Shown here: positions 2 through 35,331 of the stretch, piece after piece
Layout: each line of letters begins with the position of its first letter
Numbering within the stretch: position 1 is the stretch's first letter
NCBI GenBank assembly: GCA_964592145.1
Contig: CAZQBX010000002.1
Span: forward strand, 33,634-97,633
Direction of reading: 5' to 3'
Source: an uncultured Ignavibacteria bacterium
GTDB lineage: Bacteria; Zixibacteria; MSB-5A5; CAIYYT01
DNA length: 64,000 nt
Made by a program: the position numbers and the translations under genes
Notes under the pieces: model-generated
What the model was told of the DNA's origin: nothing
Databases searched by the model: none
The model's input: only the letters and a program-made list of their open reading frames with translations

Positions 2-292
2 GTCGCACGACACTATGACGAGACCTTGATGTCGATACTGCCGGGTGCGCCGGAGTTTGATGCACGCTTCGAGACACCGACCAAAGCCGAACGCGCTGCG
101 CAACTGCGCGGATATGTGACACGCAATCGCGACAAGATCGTGGTGCGGATGTTGATCAATGTTCTCTGGGTAGGAGATCAGAGCGAGAAGTCTGCTGCAT
201 TGTCGGCTTTGTCACGTGAGACAGGGGTTCGGTTCAATACTGCAGCAGAGTGGTCGCAATGGTACCGGGATGGTAGGCCGGACGATTGGTAG
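2..292 (+). CDS. hypothetical protein, 5' partial (open from window edge)
   Basis: Reading frame open from position 2 with no upstream stop; the ORF-track ATG at 26 is internal. No recognisable motif. Confidence 0.3.
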   Translation, partial: VARHYDETLMSILPGAPEFDARFETPTKAERAAQLRGYVTRNRDKIVVRMLINVLWVGDQSEKSAALSALSRETGVRFNTAAEWSQWYRDGRPDDW

Positions 293-338
293 GGAGCAGC
301 AAAGATGTCGAAACCGCAGGGATTTGGCCTACTGATCG

Positions 339-1790
339 TCAGGGACACATGGCACACGGGTCTGGTCCGCCGAAGAAGATGTAGTTGATCAAATAGACGA
401 CATCGGAAATCGTGACCGAGCCGCTGCAATCAGCATCGGCGGATTCCAGTGGATTTGGCGCAGTTCCGCCGCTAAAAATGTAATTAATCAGAAAAACCAC
501 GTCGCTGATGTTCACCTGGGCATTTTTGTCGGCATCGCCACACAGAAAAGGCAGAACCGTGATTGTTCCGCTGACAAAAACCGGAAGAATGGCATTGTTG
601 TCCATTCCAGTGAGCATTGACTCGGCATTGCCGGGAGGCTCATAATTTACCATGCGGAATTTCGTTGTCCCCGGAGCAATAGGGTTGAAACGAATGGAGA
701 AAATAGGTCCAGAGCCTGGACTTATCAATATGTCAACCGTTGTCATCCAACTGCTAAATGCGAATTCACGGTCGTCAGGATTATAGCCGTAACCGTCATG
801 GAGCTGACCTGCAAGGAGGGGATTGATTCTTGGCCTAGCCATGTCATGTTGCGATGTAGAAGGGGGCTCAAGCATACTCGTATCTATCATTTCCCACGCC
901 AGGCTGAAGCTGCCAATTGCTTCGTCGTTGAAAAGGTTGAAATCGATGAATTGTGGAATACCGACGTATAGAGTATCGGACACGAAAGATACAGTGTCGC
1001 GCACGCCTGGATCATAGTAGAATGACGGATTATAGGTACCGCAGGAGCAGGGAGGAGGCCCGTTATGTACTCGGTAGGCGATAAGATGGTTGATGTCTCT
1101 AATGTCCAATTGGCGGTCGCAGTTTATATCCAATGATTGGTACGATCCATCGACCAACCAGTAGTGTCCAACTAAGCTCTTGTAGGCACGAAGCTGATCA
1201 GTGACAGTAAACCAACCGTCGCCATCTGCATCACCGATCATATAATCGCAGGCGACGTGAATCTCACCTGATTGAAATTGAGGCACAAAGCTGTTCGCCG
1301 AAACATCGGTCACAACCAGGCCCGAAGCACCCGAAGTATCCAACACAACGGTCCCGCCAAATCGAGGTCGAAACCACAATTTGCAAATCTGGCCGCTGCC
1401 GACAGGGAGGCTCGATCCAGAATTCACCTCGAATTGAATGAGTACCTTTTCGGTGACGAAGGAATCAGTCTCGACGATGACAGCCTGCCGGAAGTCAAGA
1501 ATTGCCGGATCTTCAAGACGACCTCCGGTGAACGAAACGGAGTCAAATGTTGCCCAACCAGAAGAGCAGTCAATCAGCAGCGGAATCTCGATAACAGTTA
1601 GTTCTTCATCGTTGAAGAGGTAAATGGGGATTGGGATGGACTGATAAGGCAATCCCCAGCTTGCACAGCTGCATGAGTCGCTTCCGATCGAGAGTGTGTC
1701 TGCAACTCCGGGGTCTTGCGCAAACAAACAACGAATCGATACAATCGTAATGACGACGATCAGTGCAGTGAGGGTTTTCAAGGACTCCAT
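339..1790 (-). CDS. secreted dockerin-repeat protein, tandem paralog 1
   Basis: Signal-peptide-like N-terminus MESLKTLTALIVVITIVSIRCLFAQDP at the internal ATG (1790), with GGAG about 7 nt upstream. The C-terminus carries two dockerin type-I-like repeats (DADKNAQVNISDVVFLINYIF / DADCSGSVTISDVVYLINYIF) and there are further Dx[DN]xDG-type calcium-loop-like repeats in the middle. The longer ORF-track start at 1865 is probably not used. Confidence 0.75.
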   Translation of the reverse strand: MESLKTLTALIVVITIVSIRCLFAQDPGVADTLSIGSDSCSCASWGLPYQSIPIPIYLFNDEELTVIEIPLLIDCSSGWATFDSVSFTGGRLEDPAILDFRQAVIVETDSFVTEKVLIQFEVNSGSSLPVGSGQICKLWFRPRFGGTVVLDTSGASGLVVTDVSANSFVPQFQSGEIHVACDYMIGDADGDGWFTVTDQLRAYKSLVGHYWLVDGSYQSLDINCDRQLDIRDINHLIAYRVHNGPPPCSCGTYNPSFYYDPGVRDTVSFVSDTLYVGIPQFIDFNLFNDEAIGSFSLAWEMIDTSMLEPPSTSQHDMARPRINPLLAGQLHDGYGYNPDDREFAFSSWMTTVDILISPGSGPIFSIRFNPIAPGTTKFRMVNYEPPGNAESMLTGMDNNAILPVFVSGTITVLPFLCGDADKNAQVNISDVVFLINYIFSGGTAPNPLESADADCSGSVTISDVVYLINYIFFGGPDPCAMCP

Positions 1791-1907
1791 CTTCTTGCTC
1801 CCGAAACTGCCGTGGCCGGCAGCTTGACATTTGGCGAAGATTATTTGTAGTACAATATAGAGCAACGATGTCGAAGCCGCCAGCGGTTTCGACCTACGAG
1901 CTGATTG

Positions 1908-3359
1908 CTATAGACACATGGCACACGGGTCTGGTCCGCCGAAGAAGATGTAGTTGATCAAATAGACGACATCGGAAATCGTGACCGAGCCGCTGCAATC
2001 AGCATCGGCGGATTCCAGTGGATTTGGCGCAGTTCCGCCGCTAAAAATGTAATTAATCAGAAAAACCACGTCGCTGATGTTCACCTGGGCATTTTTGTCG
2101 GCATCGCCACACAGAAAAGGCAGAACCGTGATTGTTCCGCTGACAAAAACCGGAAGAATGGCATTGTTGTCCAATCCAGTGAGCATTGATTCGGCATTGC
2201 CGGGAGGCTCATAATTGACCATGCGGAATTTCGTTGTCCCCGGAGCGAGAGGTTCGAATCGAATGGAAAATACATGCCCGGAGCCTGGACTTATTAATGT
2301 GTCAATCTCCCACCTCCAACTGCTCAAGCCGAATTGATTCGGATATGAGCCGTAACCTTCATAGTCGTTAAGCTCTGTTACATAAAGGGGATTGATTCTT
2401 GGCCCAGCCATATCATCGGCGAATCTCCAGGGTGTTCGAAGAATTGTAGTGTTCTCGACATTCCAGTTAAAGCTGAAGCTGCGAATCGCCTCGTCGTTGA
2501 AGAGGTTAAATTCGATGAACTCTGGAATGCCTACGTACATGGTATCGGACGCAAATGATACTGTGTCGCGCACGCCCGGATCAAAATAGTATGCCGGGTT
2601 ATAGGTACCACAGGAGCATGGGGGGTGACCATCATAGACTGAGTAGCTGATTAGGTAATTGATGTCCCTAAGGTCCAGATGACGATCGCAATTGATATCA
2701 AATGATTGGTAATATCCGGCGGAGACCCAAAAGTGTCCTACCAAGCACTTGTGGATGCGAAGCCAGTCGTTGGAATTTGCATGCCCGGAACCATCTGCGT
2801 CTCCAACAACATAATCGCAGGCGATTTGAATCTCACCTGATTGAAATTGCGGCACAAAGCTGGTTGCCGAAACATCAGTCAGAATCAGGCCCGAAGCACC
2901 CGAAGTATCCAATACAACGGTCCCGCCAAAGCGCACTCGAAACCACAACTTGCAGATCTGGCCGCTGCCAACGGCGAGGTTCAAACCGGAACTCACCCCG
3001 AATTGAATGCTTACCTTTTCGGTGACGAAGGAGTCAGTCTCGACGATGACAGCCTGCCGGAAGTCAAGAATTGCCGGATCGTCAAGACGACCGCCGGTAA
3101 AAGAAACCGAGTCAAAGGTCGCCCAACCAGAAGAGCAATCAATCAGCAGCGGAATCTCGATTGAAGTGAGTTCCTCATCGTTTGCCAGGAATACTGGAAT
3201 TGGTATCGACTGTGAAGGTACTCCAAAGTTGGCACAGGCGCATGAGTCGCTCCCAATTGAAAGCGTGTCCGCAACTCCGGGATCTTGCGCGAACAAACAG
3301 CGAATCGATACAATTGTAATGACGACGATCAGTACAGTGAGGTTTCTTAAGGATTCCAT
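1908..3359 (-). CDS. secreted dockerin-repeat protein, tandem paralog 2
   Basis: Same length as paralog 1 (483 aa) from the internal ATG at 3359 (MESLRNLTVLIVVITIVSIRCLFAQDP). The C-terminal roughly 140 aa and the signal peptide are nearly identical to paralog 1, while the middle has diverged. The ORF-track N-terminal extension to 3674 overlaps the pilT end and is unlikely to be real. Confidence 0.75.
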   Translation of the reverse strand: MESLRNLTVLIVVITIVSIRCLFAQDPGVADTLSIGSDSCACANFGVPSQSIPIPVFLANDEELTSIEIPLLIDCSSGWATFDSVSFTGGRLDDPAILDFRQAVIVETDSFVTEKVSIQFGVSSGLNLAVGSGQICKLWFRVRFGGTVVLDTSGASGLILTDVSATSFVPQFQSGEIQIACDYVVGDADGSGHANSNDWLRIHKCLVGHFWVSAGYYQSFDINCDRHLDLRDINYLISYSVYDGHPPCSCGTYNPAYYFDPGVRDTVSFASDTMYVGIPEFIEFNLFNDEAIRSFSFNWNVENTTILRTPWRFADDMAGPRINPLYVTELNDYEGYGSYPNQFGLSSWRWEIDTLISPGSGHVFSIRFEPLAPGTTKFRMVNYEPPGNAESMLTGLDNNAILPVFVSGTITVLPFLCGDADKNAQVNISDVVFLINYIFSGGTAPNPLESADADCSGSVTISDVVYLINYIFFGGPDPCAMCL

Positions 3360-3506
3360 CTTCTTGCTCCCGAAACTGCCGCGGCCGGCAGCTTGACATT
3401 TGGCGAAGATTATCTGTAGTACAATATAGAGTCTGATCGCCAGATTGGCAAGCCCAAAGGGCAGGAAGATGTCAAGCCCCAAGAGGGCTTGACCTACTAA
3501 ACTAAG

Positions 3507-3538
3507 TAAAAACGGTCCGAACCTTGCGGCTCGGACCG
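3507..3538 (-). terminator. rho-independent terminator downstream of pilT
   Basis: Stem cggtccga (3513-3520) pairs with tcggaccg (3531-3538). On the minus strand the stem is followed by TTTTTA (the plus-strand A-tract at 3507-3512). Confidence 0.55.
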
Positions 3539-3567
3539 TCGAAGTAACAAGCTGTTGGGGAAGGCTC

Positions 3568-4680
3568 TTAGTGTTGCCCTGCTGAAAACGCCGTCCAGGC
3601 GGTATCAGATGAACCGGTAATACCCTTGATGCGCAGATCGAAGTCGTCGGGGTTACTGGCGTTGCGCATGGCATCTTCGTAAGTGATGTGACCGGCGCGA
3701 TACAGTTTCATGATCGACTGGTCGAAGGACTGCATGCCGTACTGCACGTTGCCGCCTTCGATGAATTCGATGATCGATGAGGTCTTCATCGGATCAATGA
3801 TGGCGTCGCGAATGGCGCCGGTCGAAACGGCGACCTCGACTGCTGGAACTCGGCCCGGCATATCGGCGCGCGGCAAAAGACGCTGGCAGACGATCGCCTT
3901 GAGTGTGCCGGCAAGGAGCAGACGAATCTGCTGATGCTGGTGCGGCGGGAAGAACGAAATCACGCGCGTGATAGTTTCGACCACGTTCATCGTATGCAGG
4001 GTTGTCAGTACCAGATGCCCGGTGTCGGCGGCGGCGAGGGCGATGCCCATCGTTTCGGCATCGCGAATTTCGCCGATGAGAATGACATCGGGATCCTGAC
4101 GGAACGCGTGGCGCAAAGCGGCGGCGAAGTTTTCCGAATCGGCGCCGATCTCGCGCTGGCAAATGATTGATTTCTTGTCTTTGTAGATATATTCGATCGG
4201 GTCTTCGATGGTGACGATGTTCTCGGCGCGATTCGAATTGAGATGCTCGATGATCGCGGCGAGCGTGGTCGACTTACCGGAACCGGTGGTGCCGGTGACA
4301 ATCACGAGACCGCGGCGGGCATCGCACAGATCGGTGATGACCTCGGGCAGATTCAGATCTTCAAATGAAGGAACCAGCGTATTGACCGCACGAATGGCGA
4401 TACCGGGAGTGCCGCGCTGGCGATAAAGGTTGATACGGAAACGGCCGAGCTTGGTGACCGAAAGAGCCAAGTCCATTTCGTTGCGTGCGGCAAAGCGTTT
4501 CTGTTGCTCGGGGGAGAGAATCTGCGAGACGATCTCAGTCATCGCTTCTTTGGAAATCGGTTCGGTATTAATTGCAACCAGTTTGCCGTGCACGCGGAGT
4601 GTAGGTTTGATACCAACACGCAGGTGCAAGTCGGATGCAACGAGGTGCTGCATCTCTACCAGCATGTCACGCAGGTTCAT
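3568..4680 (-). CDS. pilT: type IV pilus twitching-motility ATPase PilT
   Basis: Walker A GTTGSGKSTT and the PilT/PilU-family motifs, with the overall PilT pattern (ED.NLP....L, His box TLHT). Confidence 0.93.
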   Translation of the reverse strand: MNLRDMLVEMQHLVASDLHLRVGIKPTLRVHGKLVAINTEPISKEAMTEIVSQILSPEQQKRFAARNEMDLALSVTKLGRFRINLYRQRGTPGIAIRAVNTLVPSFEDLNLPEVITDLCDARRGLVIVTGTTGSGKSTTLAAIIEHLNSNRAENIVTIEDPIEYIYKDKKSIICQREIGADSENFAAALRHAFRQDPDVILIGEIRDAETMGIALAAADTGHLVLTTLHTMNVVETITRVISFFPPHQHQQIRLLLAGTLKAIVCQRLLPRADMPGRVPAVEVAVSTGAIRDAIIDPMKTSSIIEFIEGGNVQYGMQSFDQSIMKLYRAGHITYEDAMRNASNPDDFDLRIKGITGSSDTAWTAFSAGQH

Positions 4681-4737
4681 CGGTCTCTCCTTGACGGTTG
4701 TTCCGGAAACCAGACCGATGAGTCAGTAGATCAGGAT

Positions 4738-5259
4738 TTAGGTCGGTTCGACGATGAACAGCGCCTGACCAAATTCCACCGGCTGGGAGTTTTCCACCAT
4801 GCGTTTGACGACTACGCCGTCAAATTCCGCTTCGATCTCATTCATCAGCTTCATCGCTTCGATGATGCAGATCGTCTGGCCCTTGGTGATGCGCGTGCCG
4901 ATGTCAACGAACGGCGGCGCACCCGGTTCGGGCGAGGTGTAAAACGTTCCAACCATCGGAGACTTGATCTCCTTACCCTTGGCGACCGCAGGTTGCGGTG
5001 CGACAGGTTGTGGTTGCGGCATTACCTGCATTGGCTGCGGAGCAGGAGCAGGGGCAGCCACCTCAATCGTCGGCAAAGTAGAAGTCACCTGTGATTTAGC
5101 AACAGTGATGTGACCATGCGAACCGCCGTTGGAACCGTTGCTCACTTCGGGGCTGCGCTTGATGATCATCACATTGCTGAACCAGTTTTTGACTGTCAGC
5201 GACTCAATGTCCGACGATTCCACCAACTTCACCAGTTTCCGGATAGTTTCTTCGTTCAT
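4738..5259 (-). CDS. accB: biotin carboxyl carrier protein of acetyl-CoA carboxylase
   Basis: Biotinylation motif [11 protein letters not shown] near the C-terminus and an Ala/Pro-rich linker (APAPAPQP...). Confidence 0.9.
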
Positions 5260-5319
5260 TACTTTCTATGACCGGGCTGAATCAACCCTACTCCTGATTA
5301 TCGAATGTTTTTCCAAAAA

Positions 5320-6405
5320 CTATAGTTCCAGCAACGACTTATCGGCTTTATTCATGACCCGACAGCCATTTCTGGTGATAACAACATCATCTTCAATGCG
5401 GACGCCGCCCCAGCCGTCAATATACACACCCGGCTCGACCGTAACAACCATGTTGGGCTGTAACACTGTGTCGGACAAGGGGCTAAGGCGTGGTTCTTCG
5501 TGAATCAACAATCCGATTCCGTGGCCCAAACCGTGTCCAAAATTCTTGCCATAGCCAGCTTTGGCGATGATATCGCGAACGTGCTTATCTACAGCAGAGC
5601 CCTTTAAACCCGCTTTGGCCTTGCGAGTTCCAGCAACTTGTGCCTTCAATACAAGATTATAGATTTTCTTTTGCTGGGCGGAGGCTTTGCCGACCACCAC
5701 CGTTCTGGTGATGTCGGAATGATACCCGGCGTAAATTGCGCCGAAATCCAAGGTTACAAAATCCCCCTTCTTGATGATTTTGTACGAGGCGCGTCCATGT
5801 GGCAACGCCGAGCGATAACCCGAGGCAATGATCGTCTCAAATGACGGATCTTCCGAGCCGAGCATTTTCATTTGATACTCCAACTCGGCCGCGACCTCAG
5901 ATTCGCGAATGCCCGGTTTGATGATCTGCAGAATACGCGCGAAAGCGACATCCGCAATGTCTACCGCCTTTTGAATGTTTTTGACTTCATCACTGTCTTT
6001 TACCGAAGCGAGAGTTTCGACAATGAAGGTTGTCGGTGCGAACAGCGCAGCCGGCAAGAGCGCCTTGAGCATATTGAGGTTCTTGACCGCCATATAAGCT
6101 TCAAGGTATCCCACACGGAGATTCTTCGCATTGAGCGGCTTGATCTTTGGCAATTCGGTATAGAGGTCGCGCTGGGCGATCATGATCTTCGCGCCCTTGA
6201 CTTCTTTGCTGACCTGGGCTTTGTAACGGAAGTCGGTAATGAAATGCGCCTCGTTGGCGAAAACGACCAATACCCCATTGGAACCGGTATACCCGCATAA
6301 ATAGCGCACTTGCGACAGCTCGGTTACCAACAGGCAGTCGAGGTTGAGTCCTTTGATGATTCCTTGCAGCTTCTTAATTCTAACTTGCATGTCGTCCTTA
6401 TCCAC
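5320..6405 (-). CDS. M24-family Xaa-Pro aminopeptidase (PepP-like)
   Basis: Creatinase/prolidase N-terminal domain followed by a pita-bread fold with metal ligands, for example HGLGHGIGLLIHEEP. Confidence 0.88.
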   Translation of the reverse strand: MDKDDMQVRIKKLQGIIKGLNLDCLLVTELSQVRYLCGYTGSNGVLVVFANEAHFITDFRYKAQVSKEVKGAKIMIAQRDLYTELPKIKPLNAKNLRVGYLEAYMAVKNLNMLKALLPAALFAPTTFIVETLASVKDSDEVKNIQKAVDIADVAFARILQIIKPGIRESEVAAELEYQMKMLGSEDPSFETIIASGYRSALPHGRASYKIIKKGDFVTLDFGAIYAGYHSDITRTVVVGKASAQQKKIYNLVLKAQVAGTRKAKAGLKGSAVDKHVRDIIAKAGYGKNFGHGLGHGIGLLIHEEPRLSPLSDTVLQPNMVVTVEPGVYIDGWGGVRIEDDVVITRNGCRVMNKADKSLLEL

Positions 6406-29688: not shown

Positions 29689-32600
29689 CTAAAGCTCTTT
29701 GCCGCGCTTGAGGCGATATTCGGCCACAAGGCTGTGCATGACCGGAACCGTCAGAACTGTAATGAGCGCAATGGTCATGCCGCCAAACGACGGGATTGCC
29801 ATGGGGATCATGACGTCAGATCCTTTGCCGGATGAAGTGAGAACAGGAATCAACGCTAATAGCGTGGTGGCGACAGTCATCAGCGCGGGACGAATTCGAA
29901 TAGAGCCGGCTTGTATGATAGCTTCTTTGATTTCCACGGCGGTTGCCGGTTTCTTCTCGGTAAAGACTTGCTTGATGTACGTTGAAATCAATACACCATC
30001 GTCAGTCGCTACTCCGAACAGCGCCAGAAAGCCAACCCAGACGGCAACGGAGAGATTGTACATCTTAATATTGTAAAGCTCGCGGACATTTTCGCCAAAA
30101 AGGGAGAAGTTAAGAAACCAGTCCTGTCCGTAAAACCACATCATCAAGAACCCACCTGACCAAGCCACGAAGATGCCGGTGAAGACCAACATTGTTACCG
30201 GCACATCGCGGAACTGGAAGTAGATCAGCATAAAGATGATAAAGAGCGCAAGCGGGATGACGATTCTCAGCGTCTTCTCAGAGCGGATTTGATTTTCATA
30301 ACTGCCGGCAAAACTGTAACTCACACCGGCCGGTATGACAAACTCGCCGGACGCGATTTTTTCTTTCAGGAACTGATCGGCTTCCTCGACCACATCAACT
30401 TCGGCGCGACCCGGTTTCTTGTCAAAGATAACGTAGCCGGTAAGGAAAGTATCCTCGGATCGGATCATCATTGGTCCGCGAACGTAGTTGATTCGCGCCA
30501 GTTCGATCAGCGGAATTTGCTTGCCGTCCGAAGTTGGGACCAGGACGCGTGCTATATCTTCGATGGAATTGCGCAACTCCCGCTGATAACGCACGCGGAC
30601 CGGATATCGTTCACGGCCTTCGACAGTAGTGGTTATCGGCATGCCGCCGAGCGCGACTTCGATCACATCCTGTACATCGCGAATAGATAATCCATAGCGC
30701 GCAATGGCTTCGCGATCGATCTCAATCTCGAGATACGGATTGCCAACGATACGGTCAGCAACAACTGTTGCCGGTTCGACCGAGCCGACCTCCTTGAGCA
30801 GTCTTTCAACTTCCAGGCCCACGGCATCGACTGTTTCGAGATTCGGTCCTTTGATCTTCACGCCCATCGGCGCCCGCATTCCCGATTGCAGCATGACGAT
30901 TCGCGCCGCAATCGGCTGCAGCTTTGGCGCCGAAGTCACGCCAACAACCTTCCCGGCCTTGACGAGTTCTTCCCAAATATCATTGGCCGATCGAATATGA
31001 TCCCGCCATTGCCTGAACGGTTTGCCGTCCTCATCTGGAATCAGTCTGCCATTCTGATCGCGGACGAATGCGTTTGAGTCATCATCGAATCGGAACTTCA
31101 GGCGATTGCCGTCAGTATCGCTGATGTATTCGGATTTGTAGCTGATCACCGTCTCAATCATGGAGGTAGGCGCCGGGTCGAGTGACGACTCGACACGACC
31201 GAGCTTGCCGACGACAGATTCAATTTCGGGAACACTTTCGAAAGCTTTATCTTGAAGTTGGAGTATGCTTAAAGCCTCATCGATAGAAGCATGCGGCATC
31301 GTGGTCGGCATGTAGAGGAACGAGCCTTCATCGAGATCCGGCATGAATTCTTTGCCTGTACCGGGGAAAGCATGATTAAGCGCCACATACGGCGATGACG
31401 AGCGGATGAAGTTCGGCAGAAAACCAAAAATCGAATCAAAACCGAGCCACACCACGAAACCGATCGATACCAATCCCACCGGCATTGAGAGAAACAACAA
31501 TCGGTTATTCAGGCACCAGCGCAACACCGGCTGATAGACATGGATGAATAATTGAAATAGTGCCAGGATACCGCCGATGACAAACACGACGAAAATGAAA
31601 TTCAGCAATTCGCCCCTGCCAACACCCAATGGCATCCAGTGTTTAGTGAGAATTGAAGCGACAAATAAGGCGAGCGCGTAGTTGATGTAGCGCGGCATAT
31701 TCCGCTGAAGTGAATCGGAAAGCATCGGCTTGGCAATCATATAAGCAGCAATTGCCAAGAGCATGAGACCGGCCAGCCACAATGACCAGACAGCAATCAG
31801 GATGACGCCGGCGATGCCGAGGCCGACGGGTATTAGTCGTGAACTGCGTTTTTCCTTGCCTGGATTACTGAACATCATGTGTGCCAGAGCCGGGACGATC
31901 GTCAGTGCAACAATGACTGACGCAACCAGGGCAAAGGTTTTGGTATATGCCAGCGGCTTAAACATCTTGCCTTCGGCAGCTATCATGGTAAACACCGGCA
32001 AGAACGAAACTACTGTGGTGGCGATGGTAGTGAGTACCGCCGAGCCGACTTCCGAGGTGGCTGTAAAGATAATATCGCGGCGTGAGGTACCGGGCGGCGC
32101 TTTATCAAAGTGTCGCAGGATGTTCTCACAGATGACAATGCCCATATCCACAATGTCGCCGATGGCGATCGCAATTCCGGCGAGGGCCATGACATTGGCG
32201 TCGACGCCGAACATCTTCATCCCGATAAACGAGCCAAAGACTGCGACCGGGAGGAGCCCCGATATCAGCAATGAGCTGCGCAAGTGCATTACCATGACGA
32301 GGACGACGATGATCGTGACGATAATCTCATCGACAATTGCGGAGTTAAGTGTTCCGAGTGTCTCATAGATGAGGCCAGTACGATCATAGAACGGAACGAT
32401 GGTAACCTTCGAGACAGTGCCGTCGGCCAAGGTCTTCTGCGGCAGTCCGGCCGAGAGTTCAGCGATCTTGAGTTTGACATTCTTAATCGTCGCCAGCGGG
32501 TTCTGCCCGAATCGCGCCACAACCACGCCCCCGACGACTTCGGCACCGCCTTTGTCAAGCGCCCCACGCCGCATCGCCGGACCGAGCGTAACGGTGGCGA

Positions 32601-33477
32601 CATCTTTGAGCCGGACAGGCAGGTTGTTAGTTTGCTTGATTACCGAATTCTCGAGATCGGTGACGCTCTTTAGGAAACCAACGCCACGAATGGTGTATTC
32701 GACATTGTTGATCTCAATGGTGCCGGCACCGACATCAATGTTGGATTTGCGGACAGCCTCAAAGACGTCCTCAAGCATCACGTCGAAGGCGCGTAATGCG
32801 CTGGGGTTGACATCTACCTGATACTCTTTGACGAACCCGCCAATTGAAGCAACTTCGGCAACGCCTTCTGCAGATTGCAGAGAATAGCGAACTGTCCAAT
32901 CTTGAATCGACCTAAGCTCCTGCAAGTCCCAGCCGCCGGTCGCGTTGCCGGACGGGTCGCGTCCTTCCAGCGTATACCAGAAGACTTGTCCCAGCGCGGT
33001 CGCATCCGGACCGAGGGCGGGCTTTACACCTGGCGGGAGAACTTCCGCCGGAAGCGCATTCAGCTTCTCGAGAATTCGTGTCCGCGACCAGTAGAACTCG
33101 ACGTCATCGGTGAAGATTATGTAGATCGTGGAGAACCCGAGGTAGGAGTAGCTACGAATCGTCTTAACGCCGGGAAGCCCTAACAGCGCCGAGGTCAGTG
33201 GATAAGTAATCTGATTTTCGATATCCTGCGCCGAACGGCCGTCCCATTCGGTGAAGACGATTTGTTGATTTTCGCCGATATCGGGAATCGCGTCGACGCC
33301 GACCGGGTCGCGAGGAAGAAAGTCAATGTCCCAGTCAAACGGCGCAACCATCGTGCCCCAAACGAGTACCGCCAGGGTCATCAGCAAGACGACCAGTTTG
33401 TTGTCGAGACAGAACGCGATGATGCGGTCGATCATTGACATTCTTGATGGATCAGGGATTTGATATCGGTTACTCAT
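29689..33477 (-). CDS. cusA: HME-RND heavy-metal efflux pump, CusA/CzcA family (1262 aa)
   Basis: 12-TM RND layout, family motifs (AIGDIVDMGIV, GIAIAIGD-like), ATGA-adjacent to cusB. Confidence 0.9.
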   Translation of the reverse strand: MSNRYQIPDPSRMSMIDRIIAFCLDNKLVVLLMTLAVLVWGTMVAPFDWDIDFLPRDPVGVDAIPDIGENQQIVFTEWDGRSAQDIENQITYPLTSALLGLPGVKTIRSYSYLGFSTIYIIFTDDVEFYWSRTRILEKLNALPAEVLPPGVKPALGPDATALGQVFWYTLEGRDPSGNATGGWDLQELRSIQDWTVRYSLQSAEGVAEVASIGGFVKEYQVDVNPSALRAFDVMLEDVFEAVRKSNIDVGAGTIEINNVEYTIRGVGFLKSVTDLENSVIKQTNNLPVRLKDVATVTLGPAMRRGALDKGGAEVVGGVVVARFGQNPLATIKNVKLKIAELSAGLPQKTLADGTVSKVTIVPFYDRTGLIYETLGTLNSAIVDEIIVTIIVVLVMVMHLRSSLLISGLLPVAVFGSFIGMKMFGVDANVMALAGIAIAIGDIVDMGIVICENILRHFDKAPPGTSRRDIIFTATSEVGSAVLTTIATTVVSFLPVFTMIAAEGKMFKPLAYTKTFALVASVIVALTIVPALAHMMFSNPGKEKRSSRLIPVGLGIAGVILIAVWSLWLAGLMLLAIAAYMIAKPMLSDSLQRNMPRYINYALALFVASILTKHWMPLGVGRGELLNFIFVVFVIGGILALFQLFIHVYQPVLRWCLNNRLLFLSMPVGLVSIGFVVWLGFDSIFGFLPNFIRSSSPYVALNHAFPGTGKEFMPDLDEGSFLYMPTTMPHASIDEALSILQLQDKAFESVPEIESVVGKLGRVESSLDPAPTSMIETVISYKSEYISDTDGNRLKFRFDDDSNAFVRDQNGRLIPDEDGKPFRQWRDHIRSANDIWEELVKAGKVVGVTSAPKLQPIAARIVMLQSGMRAPMGVKIKGPNLETVDAVGLEVERLLKEVGSVEPATVVADRIVGNPYLEIEIDREAIARYGLSIRDVQDVIEVALGGMPITTTVEGRERYPVRVRYQRELRNSIEDIARVLVPTSDGKQIPLIELARINYVRGPMMIRSEDTFLTGYVIFDKKPGRAEVDVVEEADQFLKEKIASGEFVIPAGVSYSFAGSYENQIRSEKTLRIVIPLALFIIFMLIYFQFRDVPVTMLVFTGIFVAWSGGFLMMWFYGQDWFLNFSLFGENVRELYNIKMYNLSVAVWVGFLALFGVATDDGVLISTYIKQVFTEKKPATAVEIKEAIIQAGSIRIRPALMTVATTLLALIPVLTSSGKGSDVMIPMAIPSFGGMTIALITVLTVPVMHSLVAEYRLKRGKEL

Positions 33478-33480
33478 CGA

Positions 33481-35331
33481 TTAATTCACTGCCTCGAGCG
33501 TCTCTTTGATCTCGCCACAACGCAACATCATTGCGCCATAGAACGAATTGTAAACCGTGTCGACCGTTTGCAGCCAATAGGCGCCTTTGTTATCGCGCGC
33601 CATCGGACAGAACGTCAGGTAGTAATTCATGCCACTGCCGTGACCGAATGCACTCTCAAGCTCAATAATTGCTTTGGAGAGATGGAAGAAGGCGTCGCGC
33701 GCTCCTTCTAAGTCCGTGGCAACGGCGGCCTTCTCGGAATTCTTCTGCATCTGCTGTGCCAATTCCATCCAGCGACTATGTGCGGAGCCGGAGAAAAGGG
33801 ACATATCCACGTTACCAATAGTTTTGGCAAGTTGGGCGGCTGATTGTTGAGAGGCTATGACATCGTCCGCCGCCAACGCCATTTGGAACTTGAAATAATC
33901 ATTGTAGAGCGGAGTCAAGGCATCCCGAGCGGTCTCGGAAACCGCAAGTGTCTCGTTCGTTGATGAGGATCCTTTTGTTGCGGAACTGTGCTCATGCGAT
34001 GCCGGTGCGGCGCCGCCTTCGGGTGACATCATGCTTGGCTTCGCCTGAATCTGCAGTTCGCTGTCGATCTTGAAGGCACCGTTAGTGACGACCATGTCGC
34101 CCTCGACCAGTCCGTCAAGCACGACATAGTGATCGTCGATCCGGGAACCGAGCGTTATCTCGCGACCTTCAAACAAGGGACCGTCTTCGCTGGGAAGCTG
34201 CAGATAAACTACTGCCCGTTTGCCGGTGAAAAGGACAGCGGAGGCCGGCACGAGGAGTGAATTATCGGCTCCGCCGGCGCGTGTATCGACCGCAGACTTT
34301 GCCGTAGCCGTGACAAACATGTCGGGCTTTAGCCGCCCGCGGGCATTATCGACAACTGTACGCACTTGAACAGTGCGAGTCATCGGGTCGACTGTCGGGT
34401 TGATGAAACTAACCTTAGCAGCAAACTCCTCGCCTGGGATCGACTGTGAGTTAAACTTGATTTCATCGCCGATCTTGATGAGCGCCAGATCCGATTCGTA
34501 AGCTTCGAACACCGCCCATAGCTTCGAGAGGTCAGCAATTCGGAATAAGTCCATTCCGGTTTCGACGTACTGCCCTTCGACTACCATCTTCTCAACAACA
34601 GTCCCGCCATCGGGAGCGACCACCGAGATATGATCAGCGACGTCAGTCTGCGATTCAATACTTGCGATTTGTTCATCACTGAAACCAAGGAGTCGCAGTT
34701 TCTCAATGGCGGCGCGAACAGTTGCCTCGGAAGTGCTCTTCAGGATTTCGCTGTTTGATTCAGCCACACTCTGGAGTGACACCCTGGCTGCGATGAGCTC
34801 CTTCTGTGCGGACAGGAGTTCAGGCGAATAGAGTTCAAGCATTTTTTCGCCGCGCCTGACGGGCTGACCTGTTGTGTTGATGTATAGCCGGTCGATACGT
34901 CCACCGATCCGGGCGGTTATACGGGAGAGTTTTGTCTCATCGGCTGACAGTTTGCCGTAGAGTCGCAATTCGCTTTGTGCGGCACCTCGCGTAACCGGCG
35001 AAGTCGAGATTTGTGCAAGTTGTTTGGATGACTCGGACATCCGCAGTTGACGCGGACCGAGGTCTTCCGCGCCATCGGTCGTAAGTGGAATCAGATCCAT
35101 GAAGCAAATCGGACACTTGCCTTCTTTGGGTAGCTTGATCTGCGGATGCATCGAGCAAGTCCAGACCTGTGGCCCATTCGACGTTTCGCCTGACGCGCCA
35201 ATTTCTGGCGAAGTTGATTTTCCGCCGGAAAGGAGTGCACCGAGGGTGAAGGCGACAATCGTCACGGCGGCGATCGCTATCCAGAATGCCGGTTGTCTCA
35301 TCAGACCATTGCGATTGTTGAATTCATTCAT
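33481..35331 (-). CDS. cusB: RND efflux membrane-fusion protein (CusB-like) with N-terminal metal-binding motif and C-terminal DUF3347-like extension
   Basis: WTCSMHPQIKLPKEGKCPICFMDL (CusB/SilB N-terminal metal site), HlyD-like beta-barrel/lipoyl core, and a roughly 180-aa helical C-terminal tail. Confidence 0.85.
   Translation of the reverse strand: MNEFNNRNGLMRQPAFWIAIAAVTIVAFTLGALLSGGKSTSPEIGASGETSNGPQVWTCSMHPQIKLPKEGKCPICFMDLIPLTTDGAEDLGPRQLRMSESSKQLAQISTSPVTRGAAQSELRLYGKLSADETKLSRITARIGGRIDRLYINTTGQPVRRGEKMLELYSPELLSAQKELIAARVSLQSVAESNSEILKSTSEATVRAAIEKLRLLGFSDEQIASIESQTDVADHISVVAPDGGTVVEKMVVEGQYVETGMDLFRIADLSKLWAVFEAYESDLALIKIGDEIKFNSQSIPGEEFAAKVSFINPTVDPMTRTVQVRTVVDNARGRLKPDMFVTATAKSAVDTRAGGADNSLLVPASAVLFTGKRAVVYLQLPSEDGPLFEGREITLGSRIDDHYVVLDGLVEGDMVVTNGAFKIDSELQIQAKPSMMSPEGGAAPASHEHSSATKGSSSTNETLAVSETARDALTPLYNDYFKFQMALAADDVIASQQSAAQLAKTIGNVDMSLFSGSAHSRWMELAQQMQKNSEKAAVATDLEGARDAFFHLSKAIIELESAFGHGSGMNYYLTFCPMARDNKGAYWLQTVDTVYNSFYGAMMLRCGEIKETLEAVN

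What the first reader, a model, noticed from the sequence alone, without database searches (positions are those of the whole stretch)
300..3422. Tandem 1.56-kb duplication creating two dockerin-repeat secreted proteins with mosaic divergence
Two 483-aa paralogs sit head-to-tail. The promoter-proximal DNA, signal peptide and C-terminal roughly 140 aa (double dockerin-like module ending in CAMC[PL]) are almost identical at nucleotide level. The central roughly 250 aa have diverged strongly. This pattern is typical of gene conversion at the ends with diversifying selection, or relaxed constraint, in the middle domain, for example variable binding specificity on a conserved anchoring module. Dockerin-like modules imply attachment to a cohesin-bearing scaffold or S-layer partner, which is not present in this window.
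Basis: seen in the sequence. Interest (0 to 1): 0.6.

Follow-up and report, generated by a model that had tools for sequence, protein, structure and literature searches.

The report
Tandem cohesin-dockerin scaffold genes in Zixibacteria
Two neighbouring copies of a gene for a secreted protein built from alternating "socket" (cohesin) and "plug" (dockerin) modules, probably connector pieces of a cell-surface enzyme-holding complex in an uncultured bacterial phylum; the patchy similarity between the copies comes from gene conversion on an old duplication, which is an ordinary process.

Summary
The duplication is real. Two intact 483-aa genes lie head-to-tail on the minus strand (339-1790 and 1908-3359), 1569 nt apart, 82% nt and 79% aa identical, with no indels.

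The similarity is mosaic. A 261-nt tract is identical (codons 396-482). Coh1 has low dS (0.2-0.4). Codons 181-360 are saturated (dS above 1). dN/dS stays below 0.5 throughout, so diversifying selection is not supported.

A related Zixibacteria contig (KLAP179) shows that the duplication predates the species split and that the 3' tract was converted afterwards.

The C-terminal dockerin is a phylum-wide tag on peptidases and other exoproteins. Related cohesins occur in Zixibacteria proteins that end in a T9SS sorting domain.

Best reading: adaptor-type scaffoldins of a non-cellulosomal cohesin-dockerin system. All binding partners are inferred, not shown.

The parts
339..1790 (-). Gene A: 483-aa secreted Coh-Doc-Coh-Doc protein (stop codon 339-341)
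   Evidence: ORF and start found. It is identical to database protein P0001. AF2 model: pLDDT 83.8, pTM 0.68.
1908..3359 (-). Gene B: 483-aa paralogue, 79% aa identical to A
   Evidence: P0002 is the same gene called with a longer N-terminus.
1719..1790 (-). Gene A signal peptide (residues 1-24; predicted cleavage LFA|QDP). Gene B equivalent: 3288-3359.
   Evidence: Read from the sequence: a charged N-end, a hydrophobic helix (AF2 H2-22), and family-invariant Q25 and D26 directly after it. No signal-peptide predictor was available.
1242..1715 (-). Gene A cohesin-like module 1 (residues 26-183). Gene B equivalent: 2811-3284.
1053..1241 (-). Gene A internal dockerin 1 (residues 184-246), followed by the PPCSCG linker. 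Gene B equivalent: 2622-2810.
   Evidence: Second Dockerin_1 stretch in Pfam. hhalign against dockerin 2 gives 98.8%. Both calcium loops are intact and invariant: D187...D198 and D221-x-N223-C-D225-x-x-x-D229-x-x-D232. The model shows three helices at 196-241. This is the most diverged module: 59% aa identity, dS above 1.
543..1028 (-). Gene A cohesin-like module 2 (residues 255-416). Gene B equivalent: 2112-2597.
342..542 (-). Gene A C-terminal dockerin 2 plus the GGPDPCAMCP tail (residues 417-483). Gene B equivalent: 1911-2111.
344..604 (-). Gene-conversion tract, copy A: 261 nt, 100% identical to 1913-2173
   Evidence: Longest identical run, permutation p below 5e-5. In this tract A=B but both differ from KLAP179 at about 36 sites, with dS A-B 0.03 versus 0.47-0.52 to KLAP179.
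1913..2173 (-). Gene-conversion tract, copy B
   Evidence: Same evidence as for copy A.
1791..1862 (-). Duplicated 72-nt leader of gene A. It holds the -10-like TATATT, a 6-bp GC hairpin (1807-1822) and a GGGAG ribosome-binding site.
   Evidence: 70/72 identical to the leader of B, and identity stops at -72. RNA fold gives -21.8 kcal/mol. The -35 TTGCCA is not duplicated.
3360..3451 (-). Leader of gene B (3360-3431) plus the promoter-like site TTGCCA-17-TATATT (3423-3451)
   Evidence: Promoter scan scores 10 of 12. The same TTGCCAA...TATATT motif lies upstream of the syntenic genes in L001 and L002.
3511..3540 (-). Terminator-like hairpin (13-bp stem followed by a T run) ending the upstream pilT-like gene
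   Evidence: It separates the pair from the T2SSE/PilT-like ATPase gene at 3568-4680.

Best explanation
The locus carries two tandem paralogues of a Zixibacteria-specific family of secreted, non-catalytic proteins. Their layout is signal peptide, cohesin-like 1, dockerin 1, cohesin-like 2, dockerin 2, which is itself an ancient internal duplication of a Coh-Doc unit.

Proposed mechanism (inferred): they act as adaptor-type scaffoldins of a non-cellulosomal cohesin-dockerin system.
- The C-terminal dockerin (Doc2) belongs to the common class that tags many Zixibacteria exoproteins. It would plug the protein into a cohesin, for example on the Coh-Coh proteins that end in a T9SS sorting domain and so should sit on the outer membrane.
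- The conserved Coh1 would in turn hold proteins carrying the common dockerin.
- The fast-evolving Doc1 and Coh2 would form a second, paralogue-specific interface.

Evolution (shown):
- The duplication is older than the split from the nearest sequenced relative.
- Gene conversion then homogenised Doc2 very recently, and probably Coh1 and the leader earlier.
- Doc1 and Coh2 stayed diverged under purifying to relaxed selection.

The confidence of 0.6 is a blend: about 0.9 for the architecture and the evolutionary history, and about 0.5 for the adaptor-scaffoldin function.
For: Architecture:
- Pfam Dockerin_1 hits both dockerins.
- The two halves are homologous: hhalign 99.65%, E 4.5e-25.
- P0031 (Doc-Coh-Doc-Coh-Doc) has a Pfam Cohesin hit above the gathering score, and it aligns to both modules.
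- No catalytic domain was found.

System context:
- In 88 of 90 non-family hits the Doc2-like module is at the extreme C-terminus and ends YIFxGGPxPCAxC[PK].
- The passengers sampled are peptidases M28, M1 and M43, a BNR sialidase-like domain, peptidyl-arginine deiminase, beta-propellers, a beta-helix and PKD domains.
- More than 546 such loci were found in Zixibacteria-type MAGs. That includes 6-13 per MAG within the best 80, and MAGs that also carry this family.
- A profile of the cohesin-like module finds 487 representative clusters. These include Coh-Coh-T9SS-CTD proteins and a four-cohesin CTD protein with a Pfam Cohesin score of 77 bits.
- The Coh-Coh-CTD family has at least 60 full-length members, several named as Zixibacteria proteins.

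Evolution:
- dS is mosaic and dN/dS is below 0.5.
- The identical 261-nt run has p below 5e-5.
- A three-way comparison with KLAP179 dates the events.
- The same mosaic (low dS in Coh1 and Doc2, saturated in Doc1 and Coh2) appears in an independent tandem pair in L003.
- Family-wide mean distances are Coh1 0.43 and Doc2 0.42, against Doc1 0.63 and Coh2 0.59.
- Tandem pairs occur in 4 of about 20 loci, in separate clades.
Against: - No binding was measured or modelled. Which cohesin binds which dockerin is inference only.
- Pfam's Cohesin model does not hit A or B directly, even at E up to 10. A profile of the modules finds no solved cohesin by sequence. The cohesin assignment therefore rests on fold and on a chain of homology.
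- Co-occurrence of this family with a Coh-Coh-CTD anchor in one and the same genome was not shown. The assemblies retrieved differ, and the window's own genome could not be searched.
- The link between Doc1 and Coh2 rests on shared high rates and the highest distance-matrix correlation (0.84; partial 0.52). Adjacency and shared phylogeny could also produce that.
- Low dS in Coh1 could partly reflect constraint rather than conversion, because KLAP179 does not cover Coh1.
- The exact 100% identity of the 261-nt tract could be slightly inflated by assembly collapse of a repeat.
Confidence: 0.6

Rival explanations
1. Self-assembling polymer. Doc1 of one molecule binds Coh2 of the next molecule of the same paralogue (a private pair), building head-to-tail filaments or a surface matrix. 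The two paralogues would give two orthogonal polymers, or an obligate A-B alternation. Enzyme recruitment would be secondary.
For: - Each protein carries both partner types twice.
- Doc1 is found only inside this family, whereas Doc2 is shared with many enzymes.
- Doc1 and Coh2 diverge together in all three paralogue pairs examined and show the highest distance correlation.
- The residues at the canonical type I recognition positions of Doc1 segment 1 differ between A and B (V-T and Y-K versus S-N and H-K; read, with positions taken from established knowledge of type I dockerins).
Against: - No interaction data exist.
- The correlation is confounded by adjacency and phylogeny.
- Most genomes have a single copy, so an obligate A-B alternation cannot be general.
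Confidence: 0.2
2. Intramolecular clasp. Each dockerin folds back on a cohesin of the same chain, giving a compact structural surface protein or adhesin that recruits nothing.
For: - A pTM of 0.68 for a four-module chain suggests defined inter-module packing.
- Linkers between modules are short.
- Intramolecular stabilisation of dockerins is known in ruminococcal scaffoldins (title and abstract of PMC3821032).
Against: - Coordinates could not be inspected, so no contact was seen.
- It does not explain why Doc2 is the same class as the tag on many enzymes.
Confidence: 0.12
3. In this phylum the dockerin is mainly a C-terminal export or sorting tag rather than a cohesin ligand, and the beta-sandwich modules are generic adhesin or ligand-binding domains.
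For: - The module sits at the extreme C-terminus with a stereotyped PCAxCP tail in 88 of 90 proteins, like a sorting signal.
- Pfam Cohesin does not hit A or B.
Against: - Doc1 is internal, so it cannot be a C-terminal signal.
- Cohesins outrank other folds by 5-7 Z units.
- Both calcium loops are invariant.
- Relatives of the module are recognised by Pfam as cohesins.
Confidence: 0.08
4. One reading: a recent duplication whose ends are kept identical while the middle is driven apart by diversifying selection.
For: - Mosaic identity is present.
- The A branch in Coh2 carries most of the amino-acid change: dN 0.25 versus 0.015 for B.
Against: - dN/dS is at most 0.46 in every window and 0.33 on the A branch.
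- Synonymous divergence in the middle (dS 0.8-1 or more) exceeds that to the KLAP179 orthologue (0.31), so the middle is old rather than fast.
Confidence: 0.08
5. Assembly artefact: a falsely expanded or chimeric repeat.
For: - An identical 261-nt tract can mislead short-read assemblers.
- The related KLAP179 contig breaks inside the gene and looks hybrid.
Against: - There are 262 differences between the copies, and both ORFs are intact.
- Tandem pairs are also present in L001, L003 and L100 from other assemblies.
Confidence: 0.03

Closest known systems
Adaptor scaffoldins of clostridial and ruminococcal cellulosomes (for example ScaB of Acetivibrio cellulolyticus; monovalent adaptors of Ruminococcus flavefaciens)
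   Same: - A non-catalytic secreted protein that carries both cohesin(s) and a dockerin. It can therefore hold dockerin-bearing proteins and attach to another scaffoldin itself (definition in PMC4959524).
- The folds match solved type I cohesins and dockerins.
   Different: - The layout alternates Coh-Doc-Coh-Doc, with an internal dockerin of a separate class.
- It has no CBM.
- The host is a diderm of the FCB group, not a Firmicute.
- The dockerin-tagged partners sampled are peptidases and other non-cellulolytic proteins.
- Both dockerins are bracketed by conserved cysteines.
- Pfam's Cohesin model does not detect the modules.
Cellulosome-like system proposed for Candidatus Stygibacter (Cloacimonadota), with a scaffoldin carrying tandem cohesins and a T9SS C-terminal domain (PMC8542988)
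   Same: - It is an uncultured FCB-group phylum.
- Signal-peptide enzymes, including S8 and C25 peptidases, carry C-terminal dockerins.
- The cohesin-bearing protein is anchored through a conserved CTD.
- The Zixibacteria relatives found here include Coh-Coh-CTD and four-cohesin CTD proteins.
   Different: - In that system there is one giant (3,755 aa) scaffoldin with CBMs. Here there are small (about 430-480 aa) two-cohesin proteins, and in addition a Coh-Doc-Coh-Doc family.
- No paper in the searchable library links Zixibacteria with dockerins. Only one paper mentions both Zixibacteria and cellulosomes, once each.
Non-cellulosomal cohesin and dockerin modules (Archaeoglobus fulgidus cohesin 2xdh; Clostridium perfringens glycosidase cohesins 2vo8 and 2w1n)
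   Different: Those occur as single modules on enzymes or on isolated proteins. They are not repeated Coh-Doc units accompanied by a proteome-wide dockerin tag.
Concerted evolution of tandem paralogues by gene conversion
   Same: - An identical tract is bounded by divergent sequence.
- Tree topology differs along the gene.
- Copies are gained and lost among relatives.
   Different: Nothing unusual, except that the same modules (Coh1 and Doc2) are the homogenised ones in two independent pairs.

Membership tests
Dockerin type I (Pfam PF00404) | Profile match above the curated cut-off | tested here: met
   Scores are 42.5 bits (A) and 47.5 bits (B) against a cut-off of 22.9, at residues 418-471. 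A second stretch covers the internal module. All 28 family members match.
Dockerin type I (Pfam PF00404) | Two about 22-residue segments, each an EF-hand-like calcium loop (D-x-[DN]-x-[DNS]...D at position 12) followed by a helix | tested here: met
   Doc2 loops: D419-x-D421-x-N423...D430 and D452-x-D454-x-S456...D463. Doc1 loops: D187-x-D189-x-D191...D198 and D221-x-N223-x-D225...D232. Most of these residues are invariant in the family. Helices follow at 196-207, 230-241, 428-440 and 461-473.
Dockerin type I (Pfam PF00404) | Fold like solved dockerins | tested here: met
Dockerin type I (Pfam PF00404) | Ca2+-dependent binding to a cohesin | not testable with these tools
   Needs biochemistry or complex modelling.
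Cohesin (Pfam PF00963) | Profile match to the Pfam Cohesin model | tested here: not met
   No Cohesin hit in A, B or any of the 28 members, even at E up to 10. A profile of the modules finds no solved cohesin by sequence.
Cohesin (Pfam PF00963) | Nine-strand beta-sandwich (jelly-roll) fold of solved cohesins | tested here: met
Cohesin (Pfam PF00963) | Sequence homology to recognised cohesins through intermediates | tested here: met
   P0031 has a Pfam Cohesin hit of 34.1 bits (gathering score 24.1) at 356-448, and it aligns to both modules of A. Profile hits P0135 (Cohesin 77 bits) and P0145 also carry recognised cohesins.
Adaptor scaffoldin | Cohesin(s) and a dockerin in one non-catalytic, secreted polypeptide | tested here: met
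   The architecture is as described above. Pfam and NCBIfam find no catalytic domain. The signal peptide was read from the sequence and the AF2 helix at residues 2-22. No dedicated predictor was run.
Adaptor scaffoldin | An anchoring scaffoldin with a matching cohesin in the same organism | tested here: inconclusive
   Coh-Coh-T9SS-CTD proteins exist in Zixibacteria MAGs. None was retrieved from an assembly that also yielded this family. The window's own genome was not searchable.
Adaptor scaffoldin | Simultaneous binding of enzymes and of another scaffoldin | not testable with these tools
   Needs binding assays.
Cellulosome (sensu stricto) | Dockerin-borne glycoside hydrolases for plant cell wall, and a CBM on the scaffoldin | tested here: not met
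   A and B have no CBM. The ten dockerin-tagged proteins sampled carry peptidase, deiminase, BNR, propeller, beta-helix and PKD domains, and no cellulase.
T9SS cargo | C-terminal Por_Secre_tail sorting domain | tested here: not met
   It is absent from A and B. It is present in the related Coh-Coh-CTD proteins.
Gene conversion between paralogues | An identity run longer than chance, bounded by divergence, with a different tree inside and outside the tract | tested here: met
   The run is 261 nt against a permutation maximum of 75. The last codon and the flank differ. Site patterns run K=B, then A=B, then K=A along the gene. dS A-B is 0.03 inside the tract versus about 1 in Coh2.

The most novel reading that the evidence does not exclude
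Zixibacteria build a T9SS-anchored, cohesin-dockerin 'proteolysome' on their outer membrane. In it, the Coh-Doc-Coh-Doc proteins polymerise head-to-tail through a private Doc1-Coh2 interface and display a public cohesin for the many dockerin-tagged peptidases. Tandem paralogues such as A and B would then be orthogonal polymer types. Their public modules are kept identical by gene conversion while their private interface drifts apart.
Probability: 0.2. Interest if true: 0.7.

Novelty: new variant of a known kind. Interest (0 to 1): 0.45.

Why it matters
- If the adaptor reading holds, a whole uncultured phylum common in sediments organises much of its secreted proteome on the cell surface with cohesin-dockerin pairs. 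That proteome is mainly peptidases.
- This would extend the cellulosome principle to a diderm, protein-degrading setting anchored by the T9SS.
- Standard annotation misses it, because the cohesin modules escape Pfam.
- The Coh-Doc-Coh-Doc layout has two dockerin classes with different evolutionary rates. That could supply new orthogonal binding pairs for designer scaffolds.
- The locus is also a clean example of module-specific concerted evolution. By itself, however, the duplication with gene conversion is ordinary.

Tried and rejected
- NCBIfam gave no hit for A or B.
- Pfam gave no Cohesin hit for any family member at E up to 10.
- The cohesin-module profile found nothing meaningful against PDB sequences.
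- The word-indexed homologue search with that profile returned only 8 proteins. The exhaustive representative search was needed.
- The exact-protein look-up of P0001 found no contig on record, so the window's source assembly and the rest of its genome could not be reached.
- Four look-ups meant to place a Coh-Coh-CTD gene and a family member in one assembly gave different assemblies.
- The metagenome scan with A's Doc1-Coh2 segment found no relative.
- The Coh2 alignment was too variable to scan with. Coh1 worked.
- The afdb50 fold library was unavailable.
- Peer et al. 2009 is not held.
- No further paralogue or dockerin was found elsewhere in the 64-kb window (tblastn, profile).
- The window has no tRNA, Rfam or tandem-repeat feature.
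- A functional link to the adjacent pilT-like gene was considered and dropped. A strong terminator separates them, and the L003 and L089 loci have other neighbours.
- A lipoprotein reading of C21 was rejected because that cysteine is not conserved in the family.
- The CAMCP tail as a sorting motif was judged unlikely, because the same P-C-x-C pattern follows the internal dockerin (PPCSCG).


Full report
**1. The observation**

The region holds a direct repeat with a start-to-start spacing of 1569 nt. Ungapped comparison at that offset shows similarity from about 332 to 1860 and none outside. Small indels extend the repeat to about 298 on the 3' side.

The coding strand is the minus strand. Gene A is 339-1790 and gene B is 1908-3359. 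Both begin MESL..., both are 483 aa, and they align without a gap.

Identity is 82% at nucleotide level (262 differences in 1452) and 79% at protein level.

By module, nt / aa identity is:
- signal peptide: 89 / 88%
- first beta domain: 86 / 86%
- internal helical module: 65 / 59%
- second beta domain: 77 / 70%
- C-terminal module: 99 / 98.5%

The 72 nt before each ATG differ at 2 positions, and similarity stops exactly there.

- The genes are on the opposite strand.
- The nucleotide-identical C-terminal part is 87 codons, not about 140 aa.
- The signal-peptide codons are not near-identical.
- The 'middle' is not uniformly diverged.

**2. How the mosaic arose**

Nei-Gojobori estimates in 40-codon windows give the following:
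- dS = 0 for codons about 396-482
- dS 0.2-0.4 for codons about 60-180
- dS 0.65 to above 2 for codons 20-60 and 180-340
- dN/dS 0.06-0.46 throughout

The longest identical run is 261 nt (gene positions 1187-1447; window 344-604 and 1913-2173). In 20,000 permutations of the differences the mean longest run was 30 and the maximum 75. Third positions alone give the same answer.

The run ends one codon before the stop. The last codon, the stop and the 3' flank differ: CCC TGA versus CTA TAG. It is therefore an internal tract and not the untouched end of a young duplication.

Outside it, third-position differences are still heterogeneous (chi-square p = 8e-6).

A scan of species-representative genomes returned a contig of 'candidate division Zixibacteria bacterium KLAP179' (L004). 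It is the nearest relative: 83-87% nt identity, with the same downstream gene. Its copy is cut by the contig end but covers residues 247-483.

Site patterns change along the gene:
- In Coh2, KLAP179 agrees with B against A at 88 sites, and with A against B at 12.
- In the last about 110 codons, A and B agree against KLAP179 at about 36 sites. Sites where KLAP179 agrees with one copy against the other are very few there.
- In the 3' flank, KLAP179 agrees with A against B.

Three-point branch lengths give:
- Coh2: dS 0.76 for A, 0.22 for B and 0.09 for KLAP179; dN 0.25, 0.015 and 0.058.
- The tail: dS A-B 0.03, and 0.47-0.52 from either copy to KLAP179.

Three conclusions follow:
- The A and B Coh2 segments separated before the two species did.
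- The Doc2 tract was homogenised after the species split.
- The A copy has evolved under weaker constraint than B (branch dN/dS 0.33 versus 0.07), but not under detectable positive selection.

The KLAP179 gene has a B-type body and an A-type flank. It is either a deletion product of recombination within the shared tract or an assembly join through it. I cannot tell which.

**3. The same pattern elsewhere**

The family gene follows the same M24 peptidase, AccB and PilT-like ATPase genes in two other MAGs. It occurs once in L002 and as a tandem pair in L001.

Other tandem pairs occur in L003 and L100, in different neighbourhoods.

Of about 20 loci with enough flank, 4 have a pair, and the pairs lie in separate clades. 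Close relatives of one L003 copy are single-copy (L094, L096).

The L001 pair is saturated at synonymous sites throughout. The L003 pair repeats the window's mosaic: dS 0.4-0.9 in the first beta domain and 0.5-0.75 in the C-terminal module, and above 1 to saturated between them.

Across the 28 full-length members, the first beta domain and the C-terminal module are the slow ones (mean p-distance 0.43 and 0.42). The internal helical module and the second beta domain are the fast ones (0.63 and 0.59).

Two processes are therefore superimposed: module-specific constraint, and gene conversion that acts on (or is only tolerated in) the constrained modules.

**4. What the proteins are**

Pfam finds Dockerin_1 at 418-471 in both proteins, and a second, weaker stretch in the internal module. 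NCBIfam finds nothing.

An alignment of 28 homologues gave an AlphaFold2 model with pLDDT 83.8 and pTM 0.68. It contains two all-beta domains, each followed by a three-helix module.

Profile-profile comparison shows the protein is an internal duplication:
- domain 1 versus domain 2: 98.3%
- internal versus C-terminal helical module: 98.8%
- half versus half: 99.65%, E 4.5e-25

A relative, P0031, reads Doc-Coh-Doc-Coh-Doc. It has a Pfam Cohesin hit above the gathering score, and that region aligns to both beta domains of A.

Both dockerins keep complete calcium loops, and most of those residues are invariant.

Doc2 is internally symmetric: ISDVV[FY]LINYIF occurs in both segments. In type I dockerins this symmetry is associated with a dual binding mode (established knowledge; 2vn5 is such a case by its title). 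Doc1 is asymmetric. It has a variable first segment and an invariant D-x-N-C-D-R-x-x-D-x-R-D second loop.

Each dockerin is bracketed by conserved cysteines: C181, C224 and C250 for Doc1, and C417, C455, C478 and C482 for Doc2.

The N-terminus has the features of a cleaved signal peptide, followed by invariant QD. No predictor was available.

**5. The surrounding system**

The organism is a member of Zixibacteria, based on the names of homologues and on the nearest contig.

Outside the family, the best hits to A match only Doc2, at 65-78% identity. In 88 of the 90 listed, the module lies within 15 residues of the C-terminus and ends in a stereotyped YIFxGGPxPCAxC[PK].

Ten such proteins scanned with Pfam carry peptidase M28, M1 or M43, BNR sialidase-like, peptidyl-arginine deiminase, SBBP propeller, beta-helix/NosD, PKD or (weakly) cytochrome c3-like domains. 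None carries a cellulase.

The genome scan matched more than 546 loci. Among the best 80, single MAGs contribute 6-13, including the MAGs that hold L001, L002 and L004.

A profile of the cohesin-like modules was searched exhaustively against 1.84 billion representatives. It finds 487 clusters at E up to 1e-3. Sampled architectures are:
- Coh-Coh plus a T9SS sorting domain (about 433 aa)
- a four-cohesin protein with a T9SS domain (Pfam Cohesin 77 bits)
- N-terminal Coh plus FG-GAP repeats plus a T9SS domain (about 940 aa)
- BACON plus Coh plus a T9SS domain

The Coh-Coh-CTD family has at least 60 full-length members. Several are named by NCBI as Zixibacteria or GN15 proteins, and many carry precomputed Cohesin hits.

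Both of its cohesins score higher against the Coh1 profile than against the Coh2 profile (medians 38 and 29 bits versus 22 and 15). This is only a weak hint that Coh1 is the conventional one.

**6. Mechanism**

Shown:
- The module composition.
- The absence of a catalytic domain.
- The existence, in the phylum, of a common C-terminal dockerin tag.
- The existence, in the phylum, of cohesin proteins with a surface-anchoring T9SS domain.

Inferred:
- A and B are adaptor-type scaffoldins.
- Doc2, being of the common class, plugs them into the same cohesins that hold the enzymes, most plausibly the anchored Coh-Coh-CTD proteins.
- Coh1 offers a further site for common-class dockerins.
- Doc1 and Coh2 form a second interface that differs between paralogues. 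This interface could link scaffold subunits to each other.

This fits the natural adaptor scaffoldins described for cellulosomes (PMC4959524). It also fits the CTD-anchored, peptidase-bearing cellulosome-like complex proposed for a Cloacimonadota genus (PMC8542988).

The rivals cannot be excluded without binding data or complex models:
- a pure self-polymer
- an intramolecular clasp
- a dockerin that is only a sorting tag

**7. Expression signals**

A 13-bp-stem terminator follows the pilT-like gene. A TTGCCA-17-TATATT site precedes gene B. The same motif precedes the syntenic genes in L001 and L002.

The duplication boundary falls between the -35 and the -10 element. Gene A therefore inherited the -10, the leader with a GC hairpin, and the ribosome-binding site, but not the -35.

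No terminator-like site lies between B and A. A is therefore probably read through from B, or made from a weaker promoter of its own. This is inference.

**8. Comparison and novelty**

- The folds and the logic are those of the cohesin-dockerin system.
- Membership in Pfam Cohesin by sequence is not met, but by fold and by homology chain it is.
- The complex is not a cellulosome in the strict sense.
- No paper in the searchable library links Zixibacteria with dockerins. Only one paper mentions both Zixibacteria and cellulosomes, once each. The nearest published analogue is the Cloacimonadota proposal.
- I rate it a new variant of a known kind. The tandem duplication with gene conversion, which was the finding as submitted, is ordinary.

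**9. Limits**

- No read data, no coordinates of the models and no complex prediction were available.
- Co-occurrence of anchor and adaptor in one genome is not shown.
- dN/dS from two or three sequences cannot detect site-specific selection.

Noticed in passing
L084 4001-5302; L087 3001-4299; L088 3001-4311; L092 and L093 3001-4305: The Coh-Coh-T9SS-CTD gene (candidate anchoring scaffoldin) lies inside the flagellar gene cluster in every locus retrieved. It is on the opposite strand, between fliG/fliH/fliI/fliJ and flgF/flgG/flgA/flgH. The conserved position is unexplained.
   Followed up: partly
L004 1-760 (KLAP179 contig CAUJJY010000165.1): The nearest relative's copy is cut by the contig end and is a hybrid: a B-type Coh2 followed by an A-type 3' flank. 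It is either a recombinational collapse of a pair to one gene or an assembly join through the shared dockerin tract.
   Followed up: yes
window 1807-1822 and 3376-3391 (minus strand): A perfect 6-bp GC hairpin (CTGCCG-GCCR-CGGCAG) sits in the duplicated leader about 17 nt upstream of each ATG. The only difference within it between the copies lies in the loop. The leader (70/72 identical) is better conserved than the first 24 codons (89%). It is not conserved in the more distant loci.
   Followed up: partly
window 3568-6405 (minus strand); L001 1-2637; L002 2230-5051: The synteny M24 peptidase, biotin carboxyl carrier (AccB-like), PilT-like T2SSE ATPase lies upstream of the family gene in three genomes. 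The ATPase gene ends in a strong terminator at 3511-3540.
   Followed up: partly
protein P0099 (448 aa, on a 488-kb NCBI contig): A protein with the common C-terminal dockerin tag also has a weak cytochrome c3-like hit (Cytochrom_c3_2, 26.8 bits, gathering score 25). If real, a redox protein would be among the docked cargo.
   Followed up: partly
residues C181, C224, C250 and C417, C455, C478, C482 of gene A (alignment A1): Both dockerins are bracketed by conserved cysteines, and the same P-C-x-C tail ends most dockerin-tagged proteins of the phylum. A disulfide clasp across each dockerin is possible but was not checked, because no coordinates were available.
   Followed up: no
L089 4633-7425: In another Zixibacteria MAG the single family gene is directly followed by a 930-aa beta-helix protein with a C-terminal dockerin. 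A scaffold gene and a cargo gene are therefore adjacent there.
   Followed up: no
window 26-292 (+): This ORF is the C-terminal end of a larger gene cut by the window start. Its KLAP179 orthologue is 509 aa and has no family assignment that I looked up.
   Followed up: no
window 29689-35331 (minus strand): An RND efflux pair: an AcrB-family pump (1262 aa) and a CusB/HlyD-type membrane-fusion protein with a heavy-metal-binding domain. The rest of the window looks like ordinary chromosome, with no tRNA, Rfam hit or tandem repeat.
   Followed up: no
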